DNA of 64,000 nucleotides from Spironucleus salmonicida (Eukaryota), in assembly GCF_000497125.1 (NCBI RefSeq), contig NC_090598.1:62001-126000 (forward strand). Reading direction: 5' to 3'. Of this stretch, positions 23,280 to 54,485 are shown piece after piece (within the stretch, counting starts at the first letter, position 1; each line of letters begins with the position of its first letter). Position numbers and translations under genes: made by a program. The notes under the pieces are model-generated. The model was not told where the DNA came from and ran no database searches. It saw only the letters and a list, made by a program, of their open reading frames with translations.

Positions 23280-23960
23280 TCATTCAGCAAAATCAGCGGT
23301 AGCAGGAGCTACATCACCTTCAACTTATTCTTCTTTAACCATAGCATCCATGGTTTTCTCGTCGAGAGCAATGAAGATATCAGGAAGTTGCCATTCGTCT
23401 TCACGCTTGATAGTACCTTTCATGATGAGAACCTCGCGAGCGAGCATCCAGAACATGAGACCAACTGAGTTTTTAGCCTTGTTGTTACATGGGATAGCGC
23501 AGTCAACAAAAGATAACTTGGAATCAGAGTTGCAAAGGGATATAACGGGTACATTACAATAAGAAGATTCGGCAAGAGCCTAGTGATCAATGGTTGGGTC
23601 AGCAATTATTAAGAGTTCAGGCTCAAAATACTTGGGAGCAAGCCTGTTAGTGAAGGTACCAGGCTGATAACGGCCAGCGTAACCCTAAGAACGGATGAAA
23701 CGGCAGAATTTATGAACAGCACGGTGAGCTTCAGGGCGGCCAGCTACTACAGCAATTCTGGAAGGGTCAGCAACAGCAGTGATCATACGAGCAGCAAGCT
23801 AAATCTTTTACCAGGTTTTATCAAGATTAAAGATATAAGTGCCATCTTTTTCACGAGAATGGATATAATAAGCAAGCTTCTTATCCATATTACGGTGACC
23901 AAGGTGGGTATTGGCAATGATCATTTTGATTACGTCTTCTTTCTGTAAGTTGTTAGACAT
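23280..23960 (-). CDS. RPSA: 40S ribosomal protein SA (uS2)
   Basis: [33 protein letters not shown] and [12 protein letters not shown] motifs. Confidence 0.97.
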
Positions 23961-24754: not shown

Positions 24755-26125
24755 TCACTTGCACCCGTTACAGCCACTACCACATTAATCTTTATCATCA
24801 ACACAATTTTCATCGCCGCATCCCTAGTCACCACAGGCTGCATCACCACAACCTCCTCCACAGCACCCACCTGTTTCAACCTGTGGAACAGCAAATATTA
24901 ATTCCTTGGTGATTGTCACACTATATAATTTTGATAAAATTTCTTCAAATAATTCTAATTCGCCATCAAACTCAAGATTTTAACCAGCTATCTCTGTAAT
25001 ACATGCGGCAATTCCCTCAGGAGTTGTTTGATTAATGACGTTCGACATGGTAATATCAATATTATAGGCGATACAAACTTTTTTAACCGATAACATGTCA
25101 AATAAAATGCTTTAACTGATAGCAACACGGGCATCAGATAATTATAATAATAAATCAAAATCTAAATCTGTTAATGAAGACTAAAATACAACTACATTAG
25201 ACATACACTTCTTTTCATTTAAAAGTTTGTTGTTAGAAGTCGTTTTTGGCTCATAGTAATTTCTACAAAACTTGATTAACTTGGATATTCCCTCTACTTA
25301 ATCCTCTCTTCTGCAAGGACGTTATGTTAAAACCACTACATATTGCTTTTACTATTCTTTTGCTTTTTGTTCTAGTGCTATTAATACTTGCTTGACCTCT
25401 TCAATAGGTACACTTTAGGTAACAGGTATAACAACTAACATGGGTTTTTAAGGATGTTGAATACCTTAGATCATATTATTAGCTATCTTAAAGTATTCAA
25501 ATGTAGTTCTGATACCATCAGTTACTTACTCCGGCATTCCAAACTCTTATGAAGTATATAACTTAACCCTTCTAGGCATGTCATGAGTAAAAGATAAAGA
25601 ACCATAAGCAGCAACAAACTTTTCGACTTGGATAGTAAATTAATTTAAAATTTCTTTGTCAGAATATAAAACTGTAATTTTATCTTGATCAAACGCCTAA
25701 ATAAACTCTTCTATTACAACAAATTATTACTTAACTAATTTATTTGAGGCTAAATGCGCTACTATCTTTGCTTTTTTCATAAAACAAAATACCTCAATTG
25801 CAAATAAAGATGACCTATTTAAGTCATCAAATACAATGTGTATAATTTCTGGATTGATTCTGAATAGATTATAAAATACGGAATAAAATTCAAGGAACTT
25901 AAAAAACCATGCAAATAATCCAAGCATGATTTTTTTGGCGTTTGGATACGTCTAAAATTTAATAGACTATGGAATAACATCATCAGGGTGATATTGTGTT
26001 GTTTCAAAGGGTGACATAAATGTAACAGCTGAAGGTATAAGTTGATAAAAATTAGTAACCTATCTTGATACCTTTGAATATTTATAAGGTTTAAAACCTA
26101 AAACTGCAATATTTTAATTGCTCAT
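24755..26125 (-). CDS. Degenerate ALG1-like GT-B glycosyltransferase with a Cys/Gly-rich C-terminal tail (456 aa)
   Basis: Motif order parallels ALG1 (see findings). Tail is GGCCGGGCGDAACGDQGCGDENCVDDKDQCGSGCNGCK*. Confidence 0.55.
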
Positions 26126-26395: not shown

Positions 26396-27817
26396 TCAAA
26401 ATCCAGCGCCAGTAGCCTTCTTAGCATAGTCTTCATACATTTTAACAAGACTAGTTGTAGCCATAAGTAAACCTGAACCGCTAACTAAGCAGCCAGAAAT
26501 ATCAGCAATCAAGCTGAGGAGACCCAAGATGATTCCACCGGTCATAGCGGCAACTGGGATGTATCTGTTGAGTTCCCTGACCATTTCCTGGTCGCGCTTG
26601 AACCCGGGTATGATCCACTTTGAGGCCTTAAGGTTCTGAGCAACGTCCTTAGCGGACTCCCCTGAAAAGTTAACCCACATCTTGGCAGCGAAGCCGGAGA
26701 TTGTTACCACGATAACAGCGTGAAGCAGGGTATGTATGGGGTGGAATATGGCAGATCTAAAAGAATACGGAGGGGCTAAAATCCATGCAAGGCCGCCTAC
26801 GGGGTAAGGGCTACCCGGGTTTTATTCATTCTCCTGCCACTTGCCTAAAATGCCAGTGACAAAATTATTGCCTAATTTTCTCCAAACAGCCTAGGATATC
26901 ATAAACACATTTTGAGTGACGGTTGATATGATCATCATGGGCGTTGATGAGGCATAAAGGAGCTTGATGGGGTAGGACTGCTGCATCTGGTCGCCAGCTT
27001 GCTCGTGAACAATCTTGATATTTTTCCTAATTCCTTAAAGGTACACAACAACGAAAAATATTACCAGGGTGGAGATGACATCTACCAAGTTGGGAAGGCC
27101 ATGACGTATAAAGGCAAGCTTCACGGCCTCGAGTTTGTTGCCTCTGTTTACAATCATGTAGATCGCTGCAGGAATTGCACCCTCGATCTCAGTGCCGTAG
27201 CCTCTGTCAATTTTCATGAACGAAAATGTTTTCCAAATGATGGACTCACAAGTCTAGGCAGTGGTGAAAAGTGACTAACCGGACCCGACGCCCCAACCCT
27301 ACTCCATCATGTGGTCCAGCATCTACAAGATAATAGAAGCACCAGACAACTGGAGGACGATTGCGATAGCATTGAAGGCGCCCAGTTCGGCAAAGTTACC
27401 ATACATACCAGTGAAGACATACAAAACGGCCTGACCGATAGTGAAAGCGGCGCCAACGAGAGATTAAAATCTACCAAAAAGTTCAGTTTCGTCTTAATCA
27501 TTTCTATTGAATCTAAGTAAACCTGCTGAAACACACATTCTTACTATTAATCCAGAAGTCATAGTAGGGCCTAATCCTAATTCCATAACAGATCCACGAG
27601 CAGAAGAAAAAATAGTTCTAAGCCAAAAAACAGGGTCTTTGGCAATAGTAGTTCTCATCCCATATAAAGGAATTTGAGAGCCTAATAAAAATACTGTTAA
27701 ACATAAAAATGTGTAGAACATCTTTAATTCTATAGTAACAGTGCTAGGAGCTTTTTATACATAAGGAATTAGCTTAGTATATGGTTCAATCGCTTTTAAC
27801 CATGAAGGTGGAGACAT
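26396..27817 (-). CDS. SEC61A: Protein translocon subunit Sec61 alpha (473 aa)
   Basis: QIPLYG, RGSVMELGLGP, GWGVGSGQSLF, GTEIEGA, YPIKLLYAS, SGESAKDVA and ELNRYIP motifs. Confidence 0.97.
26501..27470. repeat. 970-bp segment of Sec61alpha repeated in inverted orientation at 49057-50026
   Basis: Line-by-line comparison: 967/970 identical, no indels. Confidence 0.97.
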
Positions 27818-27836
27818 TTTAGAGGAAGTGAAGTGT
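27818..27836 (-). promoter_or_regulatory. C-rich pyrimidine motif immediately 5' of the ATG (example: Sec61alpha)
   Basis: cacttcacttcctctaaa-ATG. Similar tracts occur before the ATGs at 529, 1281, 23960, 26125, 31952, 34463 and 53178. Confidence 0.6.
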
Positions 27837-27943
27837 CCTCTAAACTTATAAATTACTCTATATTTATATATAATACTCATTTATGTCTAAAATTCTTAAA
27901 GTTATATTTATATTAATAATTATAGAATAATAATTACCTATTA

Positions 27944-48001: not shown

Positions 48002-48450
48002 CATTTAAAAAAATACTAAAATAATATTATTTTTATTATGAAAGAGAGTATAAAGTCAATTTATCACTAAATTTTAATTCACTTAGAAAACTAGTTATTG
48101 CTTTAATTTTTAATAAAATATTTCATAGACTGATTTTATTTTTTAAGACCAACAGTATTATCAATATATTTATACTTTTTTCTATCATATTAATAATCAC
48201 TTGTAAAAACTATACAATTTATCATTAAATAGAATTTAACACATAATATACGTAATTATATTTAGAGTAAATTATATATACTTATTAACATAAATTTTAA
48301 TAAATATTCAAAAAGTATACAATAGAATATATTAATATCATTATAAAACATTCATTTAGTAACCAAGTAACTATACAAAAGTTAGTAATTATAATCATAC
48401 CTATATATATTATTATTCATGTAAAATTATACAAATGCATTTCCTTCATA

Positions 48451-48567
48451 ATGATTCACTGTGATACTTACGTTGACCCTTATACTGGATTTGTTACATG
48501 TCAATTACCTACCAATTATCTATGTTGTAGTGATGAATAATCAGGTATTGAAGAAGAATAATAATGA
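48451..48567 (+). CDS. Candidate 38-aa Cys-containing micro-protein
   Basis: MIHCDTYVDPYTGFVTCQLPTNYLCCSDEQSGIEEEQQ*. Preceded by tttccttcata, nearly identical to the enolase leader tttccttcaa. Confidence 0.5.
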
Positions 48568-49056
48568 GTATATTTTTATATATTAATTAGCATTATCATC
48601 TATAAGAATACGAAGAAAAAGATACATTGTTATCAAATTATATTTTTACTTAGTGTCAGGTAAATTGTGAGCTACATTTTTATTTTCAGAATAGTAATTG
48701 TGTCATAAATAATTTATTCCTTACCTATTAAAAAATATTATTAGCGATTAAAATCTAACAATCTGCTTTTAGTATACTTTTATTAAATCGCAATATATTA
48801 TGCTCTTAAATAATAAATAGACCACTTTAAACGCATACACTTAAATTATAAAAATAATTATTCAAATATAATGTATTTAGATAAGTTTATGAATAGCTAA
48901 TATCACTAATAAGAAAAGTTATAATAATTTAGTTATTTATATGATACTTTCAGTAATATATCTTCAAAATTAGTTTTAAACCATGCGAGTATTGGTAATA
49001 GTTTATTATTTAAAATGAATTGAATTGCTAATTTAATATTTTTAATATTATAGTAC

Positions 49057-50026
49057 ATTTTAATCTCTCGTTGGCGCCGCTTTCACTATCGGTCAGGCCG
49101 TTTTGTATGTCTTCACTGGTATGTATGGTAACTTTGCCGAACTGGGCGCCTTCAATGCCATCGCAATCGTGCTCCAGTTGTCTGGTGCTTCTATTATCTT
49201 GTAGATGCTGGACCACATGATGGAGTAGGGTTGGGGCGTCGGGTCCGGTTAGTCACTTTTCACCACTGCCTAGACTTGTGAGTCCATCATTTGGAAAACA
49301 TTTTCGTTCATGAAAATTGACAGAGGCTACGGCACTGAGATCGAGGGTGCAATTCCTGCAGCGATCTACATGATTGTAAACAGAGGCAACAAACTCGAGG
49401 CCGTGAAGCTTGCCTTTATACGCCATGGCCTTCCCAACTTGGTAGATGTCATCTCCACCCTGGTAATATTTTTCGTTGTTGTGTACCTTTAAGGAATTAG
49501 GAAAAATATCAAGATTGTTCACGAGCAAGCTGGCGACCAGATGCAGCAGTCCTACCCCATCAAGCTCCTTTATGCCTCATCAACGCCCATGATGATCATA
49601 TCAACCGTCACTCAAAATGTGTTTATGATATCCTAGGCTGTTTGGAGAAAATTAGGCAATAATTTTGTCACTGGCATTTTAGGCAAGTGGCAGGAGAATG
49701 AATAAAACCCGGGTAGCCCTTACCCCGTAGGCGGCCTTGCATGGATTTTAGCCCCTCCGTATTCTTTTAGATCTGCCATATTCCACCCCATACATACCCT
49801 GCTTCACGCTGTTATCGTGGTAACAATCTCCGGCTTCGCTGCCAAGATGTGGGTTAACTTTTCAGGGGAGTCCGCTAAGGACGTTGCTCAGAACCTTAAG
49901 GCCTCAAAGTGGATCATACCCGGGTTCAAGCGCGACCAGGAAATGGTCAGGGAACTCAACAGATACATCCCAGTTGCCGCTATGACCGGTGGAATCATCT
50001 TGGGTCTCCTCAGCTTGATTGCTGAT
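49057..50026 (+). pseudogene. Internal fragment of Sec61alpha (about codons 117-439), lacking the 5' end and last TM helix
   Basis: Inverted copy of 26501-27470. In-frame TGA at 49016 upstream with no native start; the frame ends IADYQNI* at 50041. Confidence 0.9.
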
Positions 50027-50643
50027 TACTAGAATATTTGATAAATCATATTAAAGGAATTGATTCTTAGCAATAGTCATAAAATGATATTGTTATACTA
50101 ATATATATGCGAGTCTTATGTTTATAGTATATTGATATTGTATAAATAATCATGATATCATTAAAATTTTACTTTAAAAACGTTTACGTTTCAATTATGA
50201 TTCATAAAGTATGAGAAGAAATATAATATAAGACATCTGTTATCATACAACAGCGGTTTACTGTATTAGGAGATATTACATAATTTTCATTTCTAAATAA
50301 TAGATAAATAAGTTATATACTAATTATTATTAATTAAAAATATCATAAATAGCTTGATCAAATAAAGTGAAACATGCCGTATTTAGCTAATTTATGAGAT
50401 ATAAATATTTTCAATATAAATATATTGTATTATGTCGATATCAATAAAAAACATCAACATTTTTTTATTCATCTATCTATTTTCGTCAATACTTGATTGA
50501 AGATTGAAGAGTGCTTTTATTCCCATATCTAGTATACTCATTATAGGTATATATGTAATATTTTATATAGCTCTAATAGTTTTCTATATTTCAAAAATTC
50601 TTTTTAGTTTTAATATTATATATTAAATAAATTTTTATAATTA

Positions 50644-51624
50644 ATGACAGACTAATTACCTTTAACTTTTGAATTTATTTGCCCATATTAGTCTCTTACT
50701 GCTTAGCTACCCTCGAGAGTATTGAAAGACGAAACATTCTTATATTACTAATAAAATATAAATATATTTTAACATGCCACGTTTTCCAATTTGGAATAAG
50801 ATGTTATTTATGAGGATATTCAAATAATCGCCGACAAATCAGGGTATCATGTACGATCGGGTTCATATATTTTACAGAGGAGATACTATAATTCTCAGCT
50901 CAATAGAATGTATTTATTTGGGATAATTTCCGCACTACTTAATGAAAATATACAAAATTTGAGAATTGGAGTAGGTTCTAAATTAATACATTAATATTTC
51001 AGTGAAGTTTTCCCAAAAATAGTCAATGAAAAACGATATTCTCCGTTAAATAAAAATATAAAGAATCCTATCGCTAATCCAGAAATAGTTTTGCAAATTA
51101 TTAAACTTATGAATAATAGATCTATAATTTTTTACCATATCGAAGCTAAATCCAAATTATCTGAGCAGTAATTACTATTTGGAGAATTTTCTGGTCCATT
51201 TTGGTATGACCAATATTATGAATAAATATATCTTATTAACTTAATCAAAAATTAAAAAGTACCACCTTAGCCAGTAAATTATATGGACTAAGCAGAATTA
51301 AATTTATAATTTATTGTTTAAGAAAATTAACCGATAACTGAGCCTGTTTAAAAATCAACCATTGTTACGGATCCCCAGGAAATTTAGCAAACTTTGTAAC
51401 CATCCTAGTCTTAAAACTGTGGCCAATAAGAGGAAAACAAACAAGATTTATTAATTTAATCAGAGGCAGAAGATCTAGTTTCTGAGTATTAGGAACCTCA
51501 ATTCCCCGACAAAAATATACTCACAGTTAGCGGATCAATGCAAGAAATAACATAACTTTTGTTATTCTTACAGGATAAAATAGGTTAAAATTCGATCTAA
51601 ATTAGCAAAATTTACACTAAATGA
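50644..51624 (+). CDS. Hypothetical protein (326 aa)
   Basis: Table-6 ORF MTDQLPLTFE...KIYTK*. Confidence 0.7.
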
Positions 51625-51642: not shown

Positions 51643-52926
51643 TCAGACATCAACAATCTCGCACTGGCAAAGCTCACCGATCTCACCGATCATGTTGTTG
51701 TTCTTCAGCCAGTCGCCGAGCTGGATTTTACATTCGCTCTCGAATTGCACTTTCGCATCACCCTATAGACTCGTAATTCGGTCTTGAATCTGCGAAATTT
51801 TCTTCACCCTATCCTCCAGGCTTGTGCTAAAAGGCGCGTGGAGCTGAAACTCGAATTTTGCGTTTTTCTGATCATGGAATGGAATAACATGCGTGACAAA
51901 GTCTTGGATTGGCTGGATTTCTGCTAAAAAGCCGTAGCCAAGTGGCCCATTCATCTTGAACTGCTGCCAGGAATTGACAAGAAACTCGTCTAAATTTGCC
52001 TTTTTGAGTATAGTTTTCATCTCTTTTTCGATGATGTTATTGGGAGCGCATTTAAGGCTCACGGAATCTTAAATACAGTAATGACTAGCGTTTGCGAAGA
52101 TCTTCAAATCGTCGCATTTTTGAATTTTTAGGAACTTGCAGTTCGTGGAAATGATACCATTTTTACTGCTGCTGATACTCAAAAACTTGGTTGCGGGTGC
52201 GTAAATTTTGATATTCTTGCAGTTAGCGATTGTGATTTGCTAGGCGTTAAAAACATAGAAAATAGAGTTTTGTGTGTTAAAAATTTTGACATGAGTGTTG
52301 GTTACACAATTAATAGCGAATGCACGCTTTTGAAGGTTTGAGTAATTAGAAGTTTGGGAAGTAATTTCCGAGAAGCTTGAGACTAAAATAGAGGACGCTT
52401 ATAATAAATTTTACGCTTTTTGAAGGTTAAGTTTTACTGGATCGGATATTTCTAGGAAGGCTTGAAGGTCAGTTGTGTATTAAGGCTTGAATGGGAGCTG
52501 AGATAGGTCAAGTTTTTCGACAAATTCAGTACCAAGAGATGCCAGTAGGACATCAAAATAAGTCAGGAGATATGTTTATAATAAGCCTTCAAAAGTTTGA
52601 TTTTACTAAACTAAAGAGTCTTCCGATAATATTTTTTGTCTTCTTGAAGATACGGTTGATTTGAATAGTATGCAAAATAAGAAAACTACAAAGTTTCCTT
52701 TTAATTCTTCATAAAGTTAGAATAATGCTAAAGCTTCTTCTTCTTTCAGTCCACAAAATTAAACAGCAATTTAGTTCCAAGCACTGATTGTGAACTTTTT
52801 AGATGGGCAAGCTTCAGCAGCTTACTAAATAAGATATGATATAGAGGGTAAGTTATCAATGTTTAAGTTTGTTTTAGGGTGAATTTAAAATAAAGTGTTA
52901 ATAAACACATCAGTCTTCACCTGCAT
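51643..52926 (-). CDS. Tubulin-binding cofactor C domain protein, TBCCD1-like (427 aa)
   Basis: Beta-helix pattern HVKIFNTQNSIFYV, ITIANCKNIKIY, LKIQKCDDLKIF and CAPNN; C-terminal QLGDWLKNN. Confidence 0.75.
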
Positions 52927-53177
52927 TGAAAATTTGTATAATATATATTACTTGTATAATAATTATATATTATTACAAATAGTATAGATAATATTTTATT
53001 TGATATATATTAATTTAGACTGATACTTAGCTATTTTAATTGATACTTATAATTACTATGATAAAATAAGCCCATAAGTTATTTATATAAACCACAAAGT
53101 ATAAACACGAATATTATATCGTAATAGTTTAATATTATGAGTAATTATTACAACCAAATCAATCGCCTTTCCTTCAA

Positions 53178-54485
53178 ATGTCTAAGATCATTAAGATACA
53201 TTAGCGCATGATCATTGATTCTCGTGGTGCCCCTACCACTGAAGTAGAAGTCACTACTGCCGACGGTACCTTCCGTGCTGCCTGCCCTTCTGGTGCTTCT
53301 ACTGGTATTTATGAAGCTCTTGAGCTTCGTGATGATGATAAAAAGAACTATTTTGGAAAGGGTGTTTCTAAGGCTCTTGATAACATTAAGAACGTCATCA
53401 CCCCAGCCCTTCTTGGTATGGATGTTTGCAACCAGGAAGCCATTGATGCAAAGATGTAAGAACTTGACGGCACTGCCAACAAGACTTTCGGTAAGCTTGG
53501 TGCCAATGCTGTTTTACCAGTTTCCATGGCATGTTGTGTTGCAGCTGCTGCTCATAACAAGATGCCCCTATGGAAATGGATAGCAAAGATTTCTGGTACC
53601 GAAAAATGTTGTCTCCCAGTTCCCTGCATGAATATTATCAATGGTGGTAAGCATGCCGGTAATCAGCTTGCTCCCCAGGAATATATGGTCGCATCAATCG
53701 CTGCTACCACCATGGTTGAAGCTATGAAGTAAGGTATGGAAGTTTATAACGAACTTAAGAAGATTCTTAAGGGTCGTTTTGGCATTGGTGCCATCGCCAT
53801 CGGTGATGAAGGTGGTTTCGCTCCCCCCGTCAATAACTGCGAAGAACCTTTAGAATGTATCATGGAAGCCATCAAGAACGCTGGTCTTGAAGGTAAAATG
53901 GGTATTTGTATGGATGTTGCTGCTTCTGAATTCTATGTTGAAGATAAGAAGATGTATGATCTTAAGTTCAAGAATGGTAATGACGAACACCAGTATATCT
54001 CTGGTAAGGACCTCGCCGCCATGTATGTTTCTTGGGCTGAAAAGTATCCTATCGTTTCTATTGAAGATCCCTTCGACCAGGACGATTTCGAATCTTATGC
54101 TCATCTCCTTGCTACCATCCAGTCTAAGGGTCTTAAGACCCAGGTTGTCGGTGATGATCTTACCGTATCTTAGGTTTCCCGTGTCCAGATGGCCATCGAT
54201 AAGAAGGCTTGTAATGCCCTCCTCCTCAAGGTCAACCAGGTTGGTACCGTGATGGGTGCTATACACGCTGCTAAGCTTGCTATGAAAAACGATTGGCATG
54301 TTATGGTTTCCCACAGATCTGGTGAAACCGAAGATTGCTTCATTGCCCATCTTGTTGTTGGTCTTGCCACCGAGCAGATCAAGACTGGTGCCCCCACTCG
54401 CTCTGAGCGTACCTGCAAGTATAATGAACTTATGCGTATTGAAGAATGCGGATAGCTTCCTTATGGTTGTGGTATCTGGAAGTGA
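53178..54485 (+). CDS. ENO: Enolase (435 aa)
   Basis: [47 protein letters not shown] and SHRSGETED; continuous only if TAR=Gln. Confidence 0.98.

What the first reader, a model, noticed from the sequence alone, without database searches (positions are those of the whole stretch)
26396..27817. GC step inside Sec61alpha coincides with its duplicated interval, suggesting long-term gene conversion with the fragment
Seen (hand counts): about 32% GC in the unique 5' part (27481-27780), about 50% in sampled lines of the duplicated part, and about 41% in the unique 3' 100 nt. The duplicated part uses G-ending codons (ggg, ctg, gtg), unlike the ggt/ctt/gcc usage of enolase and RPSA. A recent copy could not have changed the parent's composition, yet the copies are 99.7% identical. 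Inference: the start-less fragment is old and kept homogenised by GC-biased gene conversion, acting as a template for an essential gene.
Basis: partly seen in the sequence, partly recalled or inferred. Interest (0 to 1): 0.8.

Follow-up and report, generated by a model that had tools for sequence, protein, structure and literature searches.

The report
Sec61 gene's GC patch matches duplicate
In a fish-parasite (diplomonad) genome, the one stretch of an essential protein-channel gene that also exists as a second, truncated copy 21 kb away is far richer in G and C than the rest of the gene, probably because the two copies keep correcting each other with a bias towards G and C.

Summary
The gene at 26396-27817 (-) encodes Sec61alpha in a diplomonad that reads TAA/TAG as Gln, most likely Spironucleus salmonicida. 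Codons 116-439 recur as an inverted, promoter-less fragment at 49048-50026. The 970-nt core differs at 3 sites, all synonymous.

GC3 runs 0.19 / 0.57 / 0.27 along the gene, and four-fold-site GC runs 0.10 / 0.50 / 0.11. The fitted change-points (codons 120 and 436) lie 3-4 codons from the repeat edges. Short-read contigs of a second data set reproduce both arms and the exact 21,646-nt span, so this is not a long-read misassembly.

The extra GC raises both G- and C-ending codons and does not match the codon set of highly expressed genes. Ten orthologues show no such step, and protein comparisons give no sign of foreign origin.

Published work on this species already reports sharp, unexplained GC shifts, and duplicated regions at 44.7% GC against 30.7% elsewhere. 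This is a codon-resolution case of that pattern. GC-biased conversion between gene and fragment is the leading reading (about 0.5).

The fragment's age and the direction of the bias are not shown. A second GC3 patch in the window, in a TBCC-domain gene, has no detectable partner.

The parts
26396..27817 (-). Sec61alpha gene, 473 codons plus TGA, read with TAA/TAG = Gln
   Evidence: Open frame under table 6. PF10559 and PF00344 are precomputed for it, and diplomonad orthologues reach 50-60% identity. It is 473/473 identical to the Sec61alpha insert of a pSpiro episomal vector record.
27480..27817 (-). Unique 5' part (codons 1-113), AT-rich
   Evidence: GC 33.1%, GC3 0.19, four-fold-site GC 0.10. 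The third-position profile (A3 0.38, T3 0.43) matches bulk genes.
26501..27479 (-). Duplicated, GC-rich interval of the gene (identical core 26501-27470, codons 116-439)
   Evidence: Inverted repeat arm. GC 47.3%, GC3 0.57, four-fold-site GC 0.50. Change-points fall at codons 120 and 436.
26396..26500 (-). Unique 3' part (codons 440-473 plus stop), back to low GC3
   Evidence: GC3 0.27, four-fold-site GC 0.11.
27818..27835 (-). C-rich stretch followed by AAA directly before the ATG; promoter-like by the published description
   Evidence: Sequence read. The published description is a C-rich motif about 10 bp upstream plus AAA before the ATG (PMC3916229 passages). No such stretch precedes the fragment.
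49048..50026 (+). Truncated Sec61alpha copy (codons 114/116-439) set in 19%-GC intergenic DNA, inverted relative to the gene
   Evidence: tblastn gives 99% identity over residues 114-439. There is no homology beyond either edge. Short-read contigs reproduce the arms and the spacer.
49121..50041 (+). 306-aa open frame within the fragment, from an internal Met to a TGA 15 nt past the repeat
   Evidence: SecY, E=4e-38. It is present as an annotated protein in the same 90% cluster as the full gene.
27104..27104 (-). Paralogous difference 1: gene CGT, fragment CGC (fragment coordinate 49423), Arg238, synonymous
   Evidence: Both states are seen in the collapsed DNA contigs of X4 and X6.
27356..27368 (-). 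Paralogous differences 2 and 3: gene GTC/GCT, fragment GTG/GCC (fragment coordinates 49171 and 49159), Val154 and Ala150, synonymous
   Evidence: The contigs of X1 and X2 that carry the gene's flanks also carry the gene's letters at these sites.

Best explanation
The window is nuclear DNA of a hexamitine diplomonad, most likely Spironucleus salmonicida. Its single expressed Sec61alpha gene shares codons 116-439 with a promoter-less, doubly truncated copy that lies inverted 21.6 kb away on the same chromosome.

I propose that the two arms exchange sequence by non-crossover (interlocus) gene conversion. This keeps them 99.7% alike. The repair of mismatches in these exchanges favours G and C over A and T.

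The genome's mutation pressure runs strongly towards A and T (bulk GC3 about 0.2). A GC-favouring correction that acts only where a partner exists would therefore hold or push synonymous sites to about 0.5-0.6 GC inside the shared interval. The unique ends of the same gene would stay at the AT-rich equilibrium.

Crossovers between the inverted arms would split the gene and are presumably lethal, so only conversion products survive.

**Shown:** the repeat, its reality, the sharp coincident step, the non-selective nature of the GC gain, and the absence of such a step in orthologues.

**Inferred:** that conversion is recurrent, that it is GC-biased, and that the fragment has existed for long enough. 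The 0.10 against 0.50 contrast at four-fold sites implies at least about 0.4 changes per four-fold site.
For: 1. The step and the repeat coincide within 3-4 codons at both ends.
2. G3 and C3 both rise (0.23 and 0.34, against 0.12 and 0.07 in bulk genes). The codon set differs from the T3/C3-type bias of enolase and RPSA (GGT, CTT, CGT, GAA), so this is not translational selection.
3. The unique ends of the same transcript have bulk-type composition, so expression level and chromosomal neighbourhood do not explain the patch.
4. All 3 internal differences are synonymous third positions, as expected if changes are filtered through the selected gene.
5. Of the 8 orthologue loci that cover both the N-terminal and middle parts, the largest rise is 0.16, against 0.39 here. 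10 of 16 loci were analysed.
6. There is no excess protein divergence of the patch. Against Hexamita, identity is 59% / 59% / 62% for the three parts. Against a closer unnamed relative it is 73% in the patch and 88% in the C-terminal part. That ratio matches five other diplomonad pairs.
7. Eight of the 18 Gln codons in the patch are TAA/TAG, so it evolved under this genetic code.
8. The arrangement is real. In DNA run X4, a 21,646-nt short-read contig ends in both arms in opposite orientation, exactly matching window 27441-49086. The 970-nt repeat contig sits at 2.4-2.8x (X4) and 1.7-1.9x (X6) the word depth of its flanks.
9. Published passages for this species report duplicated regions (at least 2 kb, at least 95% identity) at a mean GC of 44.7% against 30.7% for the rest (PMC9509377). 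They also report sharp, unexplained G+C shifts (PMC1805757; PMC2874811).
10. There is a precedent for GC-biased arm-to-arm conversion in inverted repeats with rare inversions (PMC3723533 abstract).
Against: 1. The fragment's age is unknown. Taken alone, 3 differences in 970 nt fit a very recent copy equally well.
2. No GC bias of conversion is demonstrated. Of the 3 differences, two are T (gene) against C (fragment) and one is C against G, and none is polarised.
3. GC3 does not taper towards the patch edges (outer 30 codons at each end 0.53, core 0.58, p=0.56). No zone of intermediate divergence flanks the repeat: in-register identity is 0.27 and 0.23 in the first 30 nt outside, against a background of 0.31. 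A long-eroding conversion tract might be expected to show both.
4. A second patch of nearly identical third-position composition lies in the TBCC-domain gene (codons 227-427, GC3 0.55 against 0.28, 0 of 500 permutations). It has no partner in the window, in its 90% cluster, or among shorter proteins. An unannotated copy elsewhere in the genome could not be checked because no genome is held.
5. The DNA runs may come from the same strain as the assembly, so they do not show that the fragment is widespread.
Confidence: 0.5

Rival explanations
1. Block copy of a pre-existing patch. The middle of the gene became GC-rich for a reason unrelated to the fragment. One candidate is an allelic or inter-nuclear recombination hotspot of the kind that may underlie this species' GC mosaic. 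The fragment would then be a recent copy of exactly that block, for example DNA released between two break-prone hotspot borders and captured at another break.
For: - The copies are 99.7% identical, which a recent copy explains without further assumptions.
- The patch is uniformly GC-rich with abrupt edges and no taper.
- No diverged margins lie outside the repeat.
- The TBCC-domain gene shows that such patches exist without a detectable partner.
- Published passages describe GC-rich regions that are not tied to gene content (PMC1805757).
Against: - Both copy breakpoints would have to fall within 3-4 codons of the patch borders. By my arithmetic that is about 3e-4 by chance, so a special mechanism must be assumed.
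- There is no target-site duplication, terminal repeat or poly-A at the fragment.
- It does not explain the published genome-wide GC excess of duplicated regions unless GC-rich DNA is copied preferentially.
Confidence: 0.25
2. Imported mosaic. A piece of a Sec61alpha gene from a GC-richer hexamitine relative, or from a lost GC-rich paralogue, entered the genome. It now sits at 49 kb and overwrote the middle of the resident gene by conversion.
For: - The edges are abrupt and the block is uniform.
- GC-rich hexamitine Sec61alpha genes do exist. Metagenome locus L001 has in-frame TAA/TAG and GC3 of 0.77-0.85 throughout.
Against: - The patch shows no phylogenetic or identity discordance against Hexamita, Giardia or a closer relative.
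- The TBCC patch has the same third-position profile, which points to a process native to this genome.
- Conversion from a diverged donor needs homology beyond the tract, yet identity runs to within 9 nt or less of the fragment ends.
- Earlier authors argued against lateral transfer for most high-GC3 genes of this species (PMC1805757 passage).
Confidence: 0.08
3. Artefact. The second copy or the mosaic gene is a misassembly or a contaminant chimera.
For: The window comes from one assembly, and repeats are classic sites of assembly error.
Against: - Short-read contigs of runs X4 and X6 reproduce the flank-to-repeat edges, the doubled depth of the repeat and the exact 21,646-nt span between the arms.
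- All 8 listed runs, from 2 studies, hold 94-99% of the gene's sampled words.
- The cloned gene in a vector record encodes the identical 473-aa protein.
- Both junctions in the gene are in frame.
Confidence: 0.02
4. Gene-intrinsic selection. The GC3 profile reflects selection on the mRNA or on translation of the membrane-spanning core of Sec61alpha.
For: Sec61alpha is a highly conserved housekeeping gene, and some highly expressed genes in the window have raised GC3 (enolase and RPSA, 0.38-0.41).
Against: - The codon set in the patch is not that of enolase and RPSA.
- The unique ends of the same mRNA are bulk-type.
- Orthologues show no step.
- A non-functional fragment shares the composition.
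Confidence: 0.03

Closest known systems
GC excess of duplicated regions and the unexplained G+C mosaic of Spironucleus salmonicida (Andersson et al. 2007, PMC1805757; Roxstrom-Lindquist et al. 2010, PMC2874811; Xu et al. 2022, PMC9509377; passages read)
   Same: Same organism (inferred) and same signal. GC shifts sharply, GC3 is high in a minority of genes, and repeated DNA averages 44.7% GC. The patch here is 47.3% GC.
   Different: The published association uses repeats of at least 2 kb and whole regions or genes. Here the repeat is 0.97 kb and lies inside a single essential gene. The GC border coincides with the repeat edge to within a few codons, with the gene's own ends serving as an internal control. 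No paper in the searched library links Spironucleus with 'biased gene conversion' (0 papers).
Arm-to-arm GC-biased gene conversion in human Y-chromosome palindrome P6 (Hallast et al. 2013, PMC3723533; abstract read)
   Same: Intrachromosomal inverted repeats are kept more than 99% identical by conversion. The bias is towards G and C, and crossover (inversion) products are rare.
   Different: That study measured the conversion events and their bias on a phylogeny; here they are inferred from composition only. The arms here are about 1 kb rather than many kb. One arm is part of an essential gene and the other is a truncated copy.
Gene/pseudogene conversion pairs and GC enrichment of concerted gene families (for example mammalian histone and Hsp70 paralogues, CYP21A2/CYP21A1P). 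Recalled from memory, not from a call.
   Same: A non-functional or redundant copy exchanges sequence with a functional gene, and converted paralogues become GC3-rich.
   Different: The partner here lacks both ends and a promoter. The effect is a threefold GC3 step within one open reading frame in a very AT-rich protist genome.

Membership tests
Sec61alpha / SecY translocon subunit | Full-length match to the SecY (PF00344) and plug (PF10559) domains, with orthologue-level similarity along the whole protein | tested here: met
   Precomputed Pfam domains and 50-60% identity to diplomonad Sec61alpha over 98-99% of the length. The fragment ORF matches PF00344 at E=4e-38 but lacks residues 1-115 and 440-473.
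Interlocus (non-allelic) gene conversion pair / concerted evolution | Two loci share a tract that is far more similar than the age of the duplication allows. Copies group by species although the duplication predates the species. | not testable with these tools
   No genome is held and no DNA of a close relative was available. Only protein pieces of a relative at about 73-88% identity were found.
Interlocus (non-allelic) gene conversion pair / concerted evolution | Near-identity confined to a tract with sharp borders, flanked by unrelated sequence | tested here: met
   970-nt core with 3 differences. In-register identity outside is 0.27 and 0.23, against a background of 0.31 +/- 0.03.
GC-biased gene conversion (gBGC) | GC gain at weakly selected sites of all kinds, with both G and C raised and unlike the preferred-codon set, confined to the recombining interval | tested here: met
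   Four-fold-site GC of 0.10 / 0.50 / 0.11. G3 and C3 are both raised, and the codon set differs from enolase and RPSA. The change-points fall at the repeat edges.
GC-biased gene conversion (gBGC) | Excess of AT-to-GC over GC-to-AT among polarised conversion or fixation events | not testable with these tools
   Only 3 paralogous differences exist (T/C, C/G, T/C as gene/fragment) and there is no outgroup DNA.
Processed pseudogene / retrocopy | A copy that reaches the mRNA 3' end, carries a poly-A tail and has target-site duplications | tested here: not met
   The fragment lacks the last 34 codons and the 3' end. It has no poly-A and no flanking direct repeat beyond chance AT-rich matches.
Laterally imported gene segment (mosaic gene) | The segment shows discordant similarity or phylogeny relative to its flanks | tested here: not met
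   Identity to Hexamita is 59% / 59% / 62% for the N-terminal, middle and C-terminal parts. The patch-to-C-terminal identity ratio against a closer relative is 0.83, within the range of five other diplomonad pairs at 0.83-0.95. TAA/TAG Gln codons occur within the patch.

The most novel reading that the evidence does not exclude
A promoter-less, doubly truncated Sec61alpha fragment has persisted as the conversion partner of an essential single-copy gene for roughly 0.4 or more substitutions per synonymous site. Interlocus GC-biased conversion alone has produced a codon-sharp, roughly threefold GC3 step inside one reading frame.

If so, having a repeated partner is the direct cause of the G+C mosaic of Spironucleus salmonicida, which has been described as unexplained since 2007. 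Sub-kilobase partial duplicates across the genome should then mark the borders of GC patches.
Probability: 0.4. Interest if true: 0.6.

Novelty: new member of a known kind. Interest (0 to 1): 0.4.

Why it matters
The sharp G+C mosaic of this fish parasite's genome was called hard to explain by either mutation or selection in 2007 (PMC1805757). In 2022 it was linked only statistically to large duplications (PMC9509377).

This locus is a natural experiment at codon resolution. Within one transcript, in one chromosomal setting and under one expression level, only the interval that has a second copy is GC-rich.

That makes the causal question directly testable: does having a conversion partner drive GC content? 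The tests are a genome-wide scan for short repeats against GC change-points, and a comparison with relatives.

It is also a caution for annotation. The 306-aa 'protein' at 49121-50041 is a truncated copy and not a second Sec61alpha. It is equally a caution for codon-usage or lateral-transfer screens that read GC3 outliers as foreign or as highly expressed.

Tried and rejected
- **Own genome.** None is held. I could not search for further copies of the Sec61 fragment or for a partner of the TBCC patch outside the window.
- **Earlier notes of this scan.** Nothing by place, words or sequence.
- **RNA.** No RNA holder is listed for the gene's runs. X1 and X2 are only guessed to be RNA. Their contigs give no cover on the fragment's flanks (48400-49015 and 50094-50632). 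Contigs cannot show absence, so I draw no conclusion on whether the fragment is transcribed.
- **Bridging rule.** The flank contigs of X4 and X6 run only 30-39 letters into the repeat, as expected at a branch of a k=31 graph. At the right junction they fall one letter short of the tool's 31-letter bridging rule. The support is therefore at word level, plus the exact contig length, and not a spanning read.
- **Promoter and terminator scan.** It uses bacterial consensus patterns and is irrelevant to a eukaryote, so I disregarded it.
- **Terminal repeats or target-site duplications around the fragment.** Only short AT-rich chance matches were found.
- **Remnants of the gene's 5' or 3' parts beside the fragment.** None. 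The blastn word-7 hits were no better than in the deliberately mismatched control pairings.
- **Taper of GC3 towards the patch edges.** None was detectable.
- **Partner for the TBCC patch.** Its 90% cluster has 1 member. No shorter protein matches residues 205-427 (0 of 19 candidates). tblastn finds only the gene itself in the window.
- **Close-relative DNA.** The metagenome scan gave one hexamitine locus at 59% identity and 15 more distant or partial ones. The closer relative is known only as protein pieces.
- **Supplements.** I did not open the supplements of the 2014 and 2022 genome papers. Their lists of partial genes and duplicated regions may already include this fragment.

Full report
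**What is there.** The region 26396-27817 on the minus strand is broken by ten TAA/TAG codons under the standard code. It is a single 473-codon frame ending in TGA under table 6.

The protein is Sec61alpha, with the SecY and plug domains. The best named relatives are Hexamita inflata (60%) and Giardia (54-55%). The window is therefore nuclear DNA of a hexamitine diplomonad.

The protein's 90% cluster contains the Sec61alpha insert of an episomal vector record named pSpiro-BSR-Sec61alpha-2xOLLAS-C, which is 473/473 identical. Together with the genetic code and the literature, this points to Spironucleus salmonicida. That is my inference and was not given to me.

Directly before the ATG at 27817 lies a C-rich stretch followed by AAA. 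This fits the published description of promoters of highly expressed genes in this species (PMC3916229 passages).

**The observation.** The only long repeat in the 64-kb window is an inverted pair, 26501-27479 and 49048-50026.
- Three of its six mismatches lie in the last 9 nt at the 5' edge. The real core is 970 nt with three differences, or 99.7% identity.
- All three differences are synonymous third-position changes: Ala150 GCT/GCC, Val154 GTC/GTG and Arg238 CGT/CGC, written gene/fragment.
- GC is 33.1% / 47.3% / 40.2% for the 5' unique, duplicated and 3' unique parts.
- GC3 is 0.19 / 0.57 / 0.27.
- Four-fold-site GC is 0.10 / 0.50 / 0.11.
- A two-change-point likelihood fit on the GC3 series places the GC-rich block at codons 120-436. 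The support intervals are 118-123 and 434-446, and 0 of 100 permutations reach the gain.
- The repeat core covers codons 116-439.

Bulk genes in the window have GC3 of 0.17-0.25.

**Is the second copy real?** All eight listed runs, from two studies, hold 94-99% of the gene's sampled words. I laid the contigs of four of them on 48400-50700.

In the two DNA runs (X4 and X6, which are one sample):
- Contigs come in from both AT-rich flanks and stop 30-39 letters inside the repeat.
- A separate 970-nt contig carries the repeat at 2.4-2.8x (X4) and 1.7-1.9x (X6) the word depth of the flanks.
- One X4 contig of 21,646 nt ends in the repeat at both ends in opposite orientation. That is exactly window 27441-49086.

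By the tool's 31-letter rule the flank contigs fall just short of 'bridging' at the right junction. This is word-level support, not a spanning read, and the sample may be the strain that was assembled. Even so, it excludes a long-read assembly artefact.

In X1 and X2 (guessed to be RNA), the contigs that cover the repeat continue into the gene's own flanks. They carry the gene's letters at all three variable sites.

**What kind of GC enrichment is it?** Third-position use in the patch is A 0.15, T 0.28, G 0.23, C 0.34. Bulk genes have 0.41 / 0.41 / 0.12 / 0.07, and the gene's own 5' part has 0.38 / 0.43 / 0.11 / 0.08.

Enolase (53178-54485) and RPSA (23280-23960) reach GC3 of about 0.4 through a different, T/C-ending preferred set: GGT, CTT, GCT/GCC, CGT and GAA. 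The patch instead uses GGC, CTC/CTG/TTG, GTC/GTG and GAG.

Its point stands, though: this is not the bias seen in highly expressed genes. Eight of the 18 Gln codons in the patch are TAA/TAG, so the patch evolved under this genetic code.

**Tests of alternatives.**
- *Gene-intrinsic selection.* I analysed ten of the 16 metagenome loci that encode Sec61alpha. I dropped four N-terminally truncated loci and two with short matches. None shows a comparable step. Of the eight that cover both the N-terminal and middle parts, the largest rise is 0.16, against 0.39 here. The one hexamitine locus, L001 (59% identical), is GC3-rich throughout at 0.77 / 0.85.
- *Foreign origin.* Identity to Hexamita is 59% / 59% / 62% for the three parts. 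Protein pieces of a closer, unnamed relative give 158/217 (73%) in the patch and 29/33 (88%) in the C-terminal unique part. Five other diplomonad pairs show the same ratio. There is no discordance.
- *Remnant of a larger, older duplicate.* No trace of the gene's 5' or 3' parts lies beside the fragment.
- *Retrocopy or transposon capture.* There is no poly-A, target-site duplication or terminal repeat.

**Context from the literature.** Three sets of passages bear on this.
- Andersson et al. 2007 describe sharp shifts in G+C within S. salmonicida contigs, and high-GC3 genes located in them. They state that neither mutational nor selection scenarios easily explain the pattern, and they argue against lateral transfer for most such genes (PMC1805757).
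- Roxstrom-Lindquist et al. 2010 report that the S. barkhanus orthologues of high-GC3 S. salmonicida genes are not GC3-rich (PMC2874811).
- Xu et al. 2022 report that duplicated regions (at least 2 kb, at least 95% identity; 19.2% of the genome) have a mean GC of 44.7% against 30.7% for the rest. They mention gene conversion only in connection with surface-protein families (PMC9509377).

A search for 'Spironucleus' together with 'biased gene conversion' returned 0 papers. GC-biased arm-to-arm conversion of inverted repeats with rare inversions is documented for a human Y palindrome (PMC3723533 abstract).

**Best explanation (about 0.5).** The gene and the truncated copy exchange sequence by non-crossover conversion with a bias towards G and C. 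Against a strongly AT-directed mutation pressure, this holds synonymous sites near 0.5-0.6 GC only where a partner exists.

This accounts for the coincidence of borders, the non-selective codon pattern, the bulk-type ends of the same transcript, the purely synonymous differences, and the published genome-wide GC excess of repeats. A crossover between the inverted arms would split the gene, so only conversion products should persist. That last point is inference.

**What weakens it.**
- The fragment's age and the direction of the bias are not shown.
- The patch is uniform up to its edges: the outer 30 codons at each end have GC3 of 0.53 and the core 0.58 (p=0.56).
- There are no partly diverged margins.
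- The TBCC-domain gene at 51643-52926 has a second GC3 step, 0.28 to 0.55 after codon 226. The support interval is 207-234, and 0 of 500 permutations reach the gain. Its third-position profile is almost the same as that of the Sec61 patch.
- I found no partner for that TBCC patch in the window, in its 90% cluster, or among shorter proteins. An unannotated copy elsewhere could not be checked.

**Rivals.**
- A recent block copy of a patch that became GC-rich for another reason (about 0.25). This needs a mechanism that cuts at the patch borders.
- Import of a GC-rich segment (about 0.08).
- Gene-intrinsic selection (about 0.03).
- Artefact (about 0.02).

This is a codon-resolution example of a pattern already reported at coarse scale for this species, and of a mechanism known elsewhere. 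I therefore rate it a new member of a known kind, with moderate interest (0.4). Its value is as a clean internal-control test case for the cause of this genome's G+C mosaic.

Noticed in passing
window 51643-52926 (-), especially 51643-52248: A TBCC-domain gene has its own GC3 step. Codons 1-226 are at 0.28 and codons 227-427 at 0.55, with 0 of 500 permutations reaching the gain. Its third-position profile (A .19, T .28, G .21, C .32) is nearly the same as that of the Sec61 patch. No duplicate was found in the window or among annotated proteins.
   Followed up: partly
window 49121-50041 (+): The truncated Sec61alpha copy is carried as a 306-aa protein in public protein collections (P0121). It lacks residues 1-137 and 440-473 of the full protein, so it should be treated as a partial gene or pseudogene.
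   Followed up: partly
window 27818-27880 (-): The frame stays open upstream to an ATG at 27880, giving 494 aa. The vector record's protein includes these 21 extra residues. However, the C-rich stretch plus AAA sits directly before the ATG at 27817, which favours the shorter start.
   Followed up: partly
locus L001 (metagenome contig, 1353 nt): This is a hexamitine-type Sec61alpha, 59% identical with 3 in-frame TAA/TAG codons. Its GC3 is 0.77-1.0 along the whole gene. Very GC-rich users of this genetic code therefore exist in the environment.
   Followed up: no
proteins P0137/P0144, P0138/P0146-P0148, P0145 (unnamed assemblies): A closer relative (73-88% identical) is present only as short ORF pieces, cut at TAA/TAG by standard-code gene calling. 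Several variants 1-3 residues apart sit on different contigs. This could reflect allelic heterogeneity or several copies.
   Followed up: partly
window 24755-26125 (-): The neighbouring 456-aa ORF has no Pfam match. It ends in a Cys/Gly-rich tail (…GGCCGGGCGDAACGDQGCGDENC…CGSGCNGCK).
   Followed up: no
window 53058-54485 (+) and 23280-23960 (-): Enolase and ribosomal protein SA show the T/C-ending preferred-codon bias (GC3 about 0.4). This is distinct from both the bulk genes and the GC patches. The enolase frame is open for 40 codons upstream of the likely start at 53178.
   Followed up: partly
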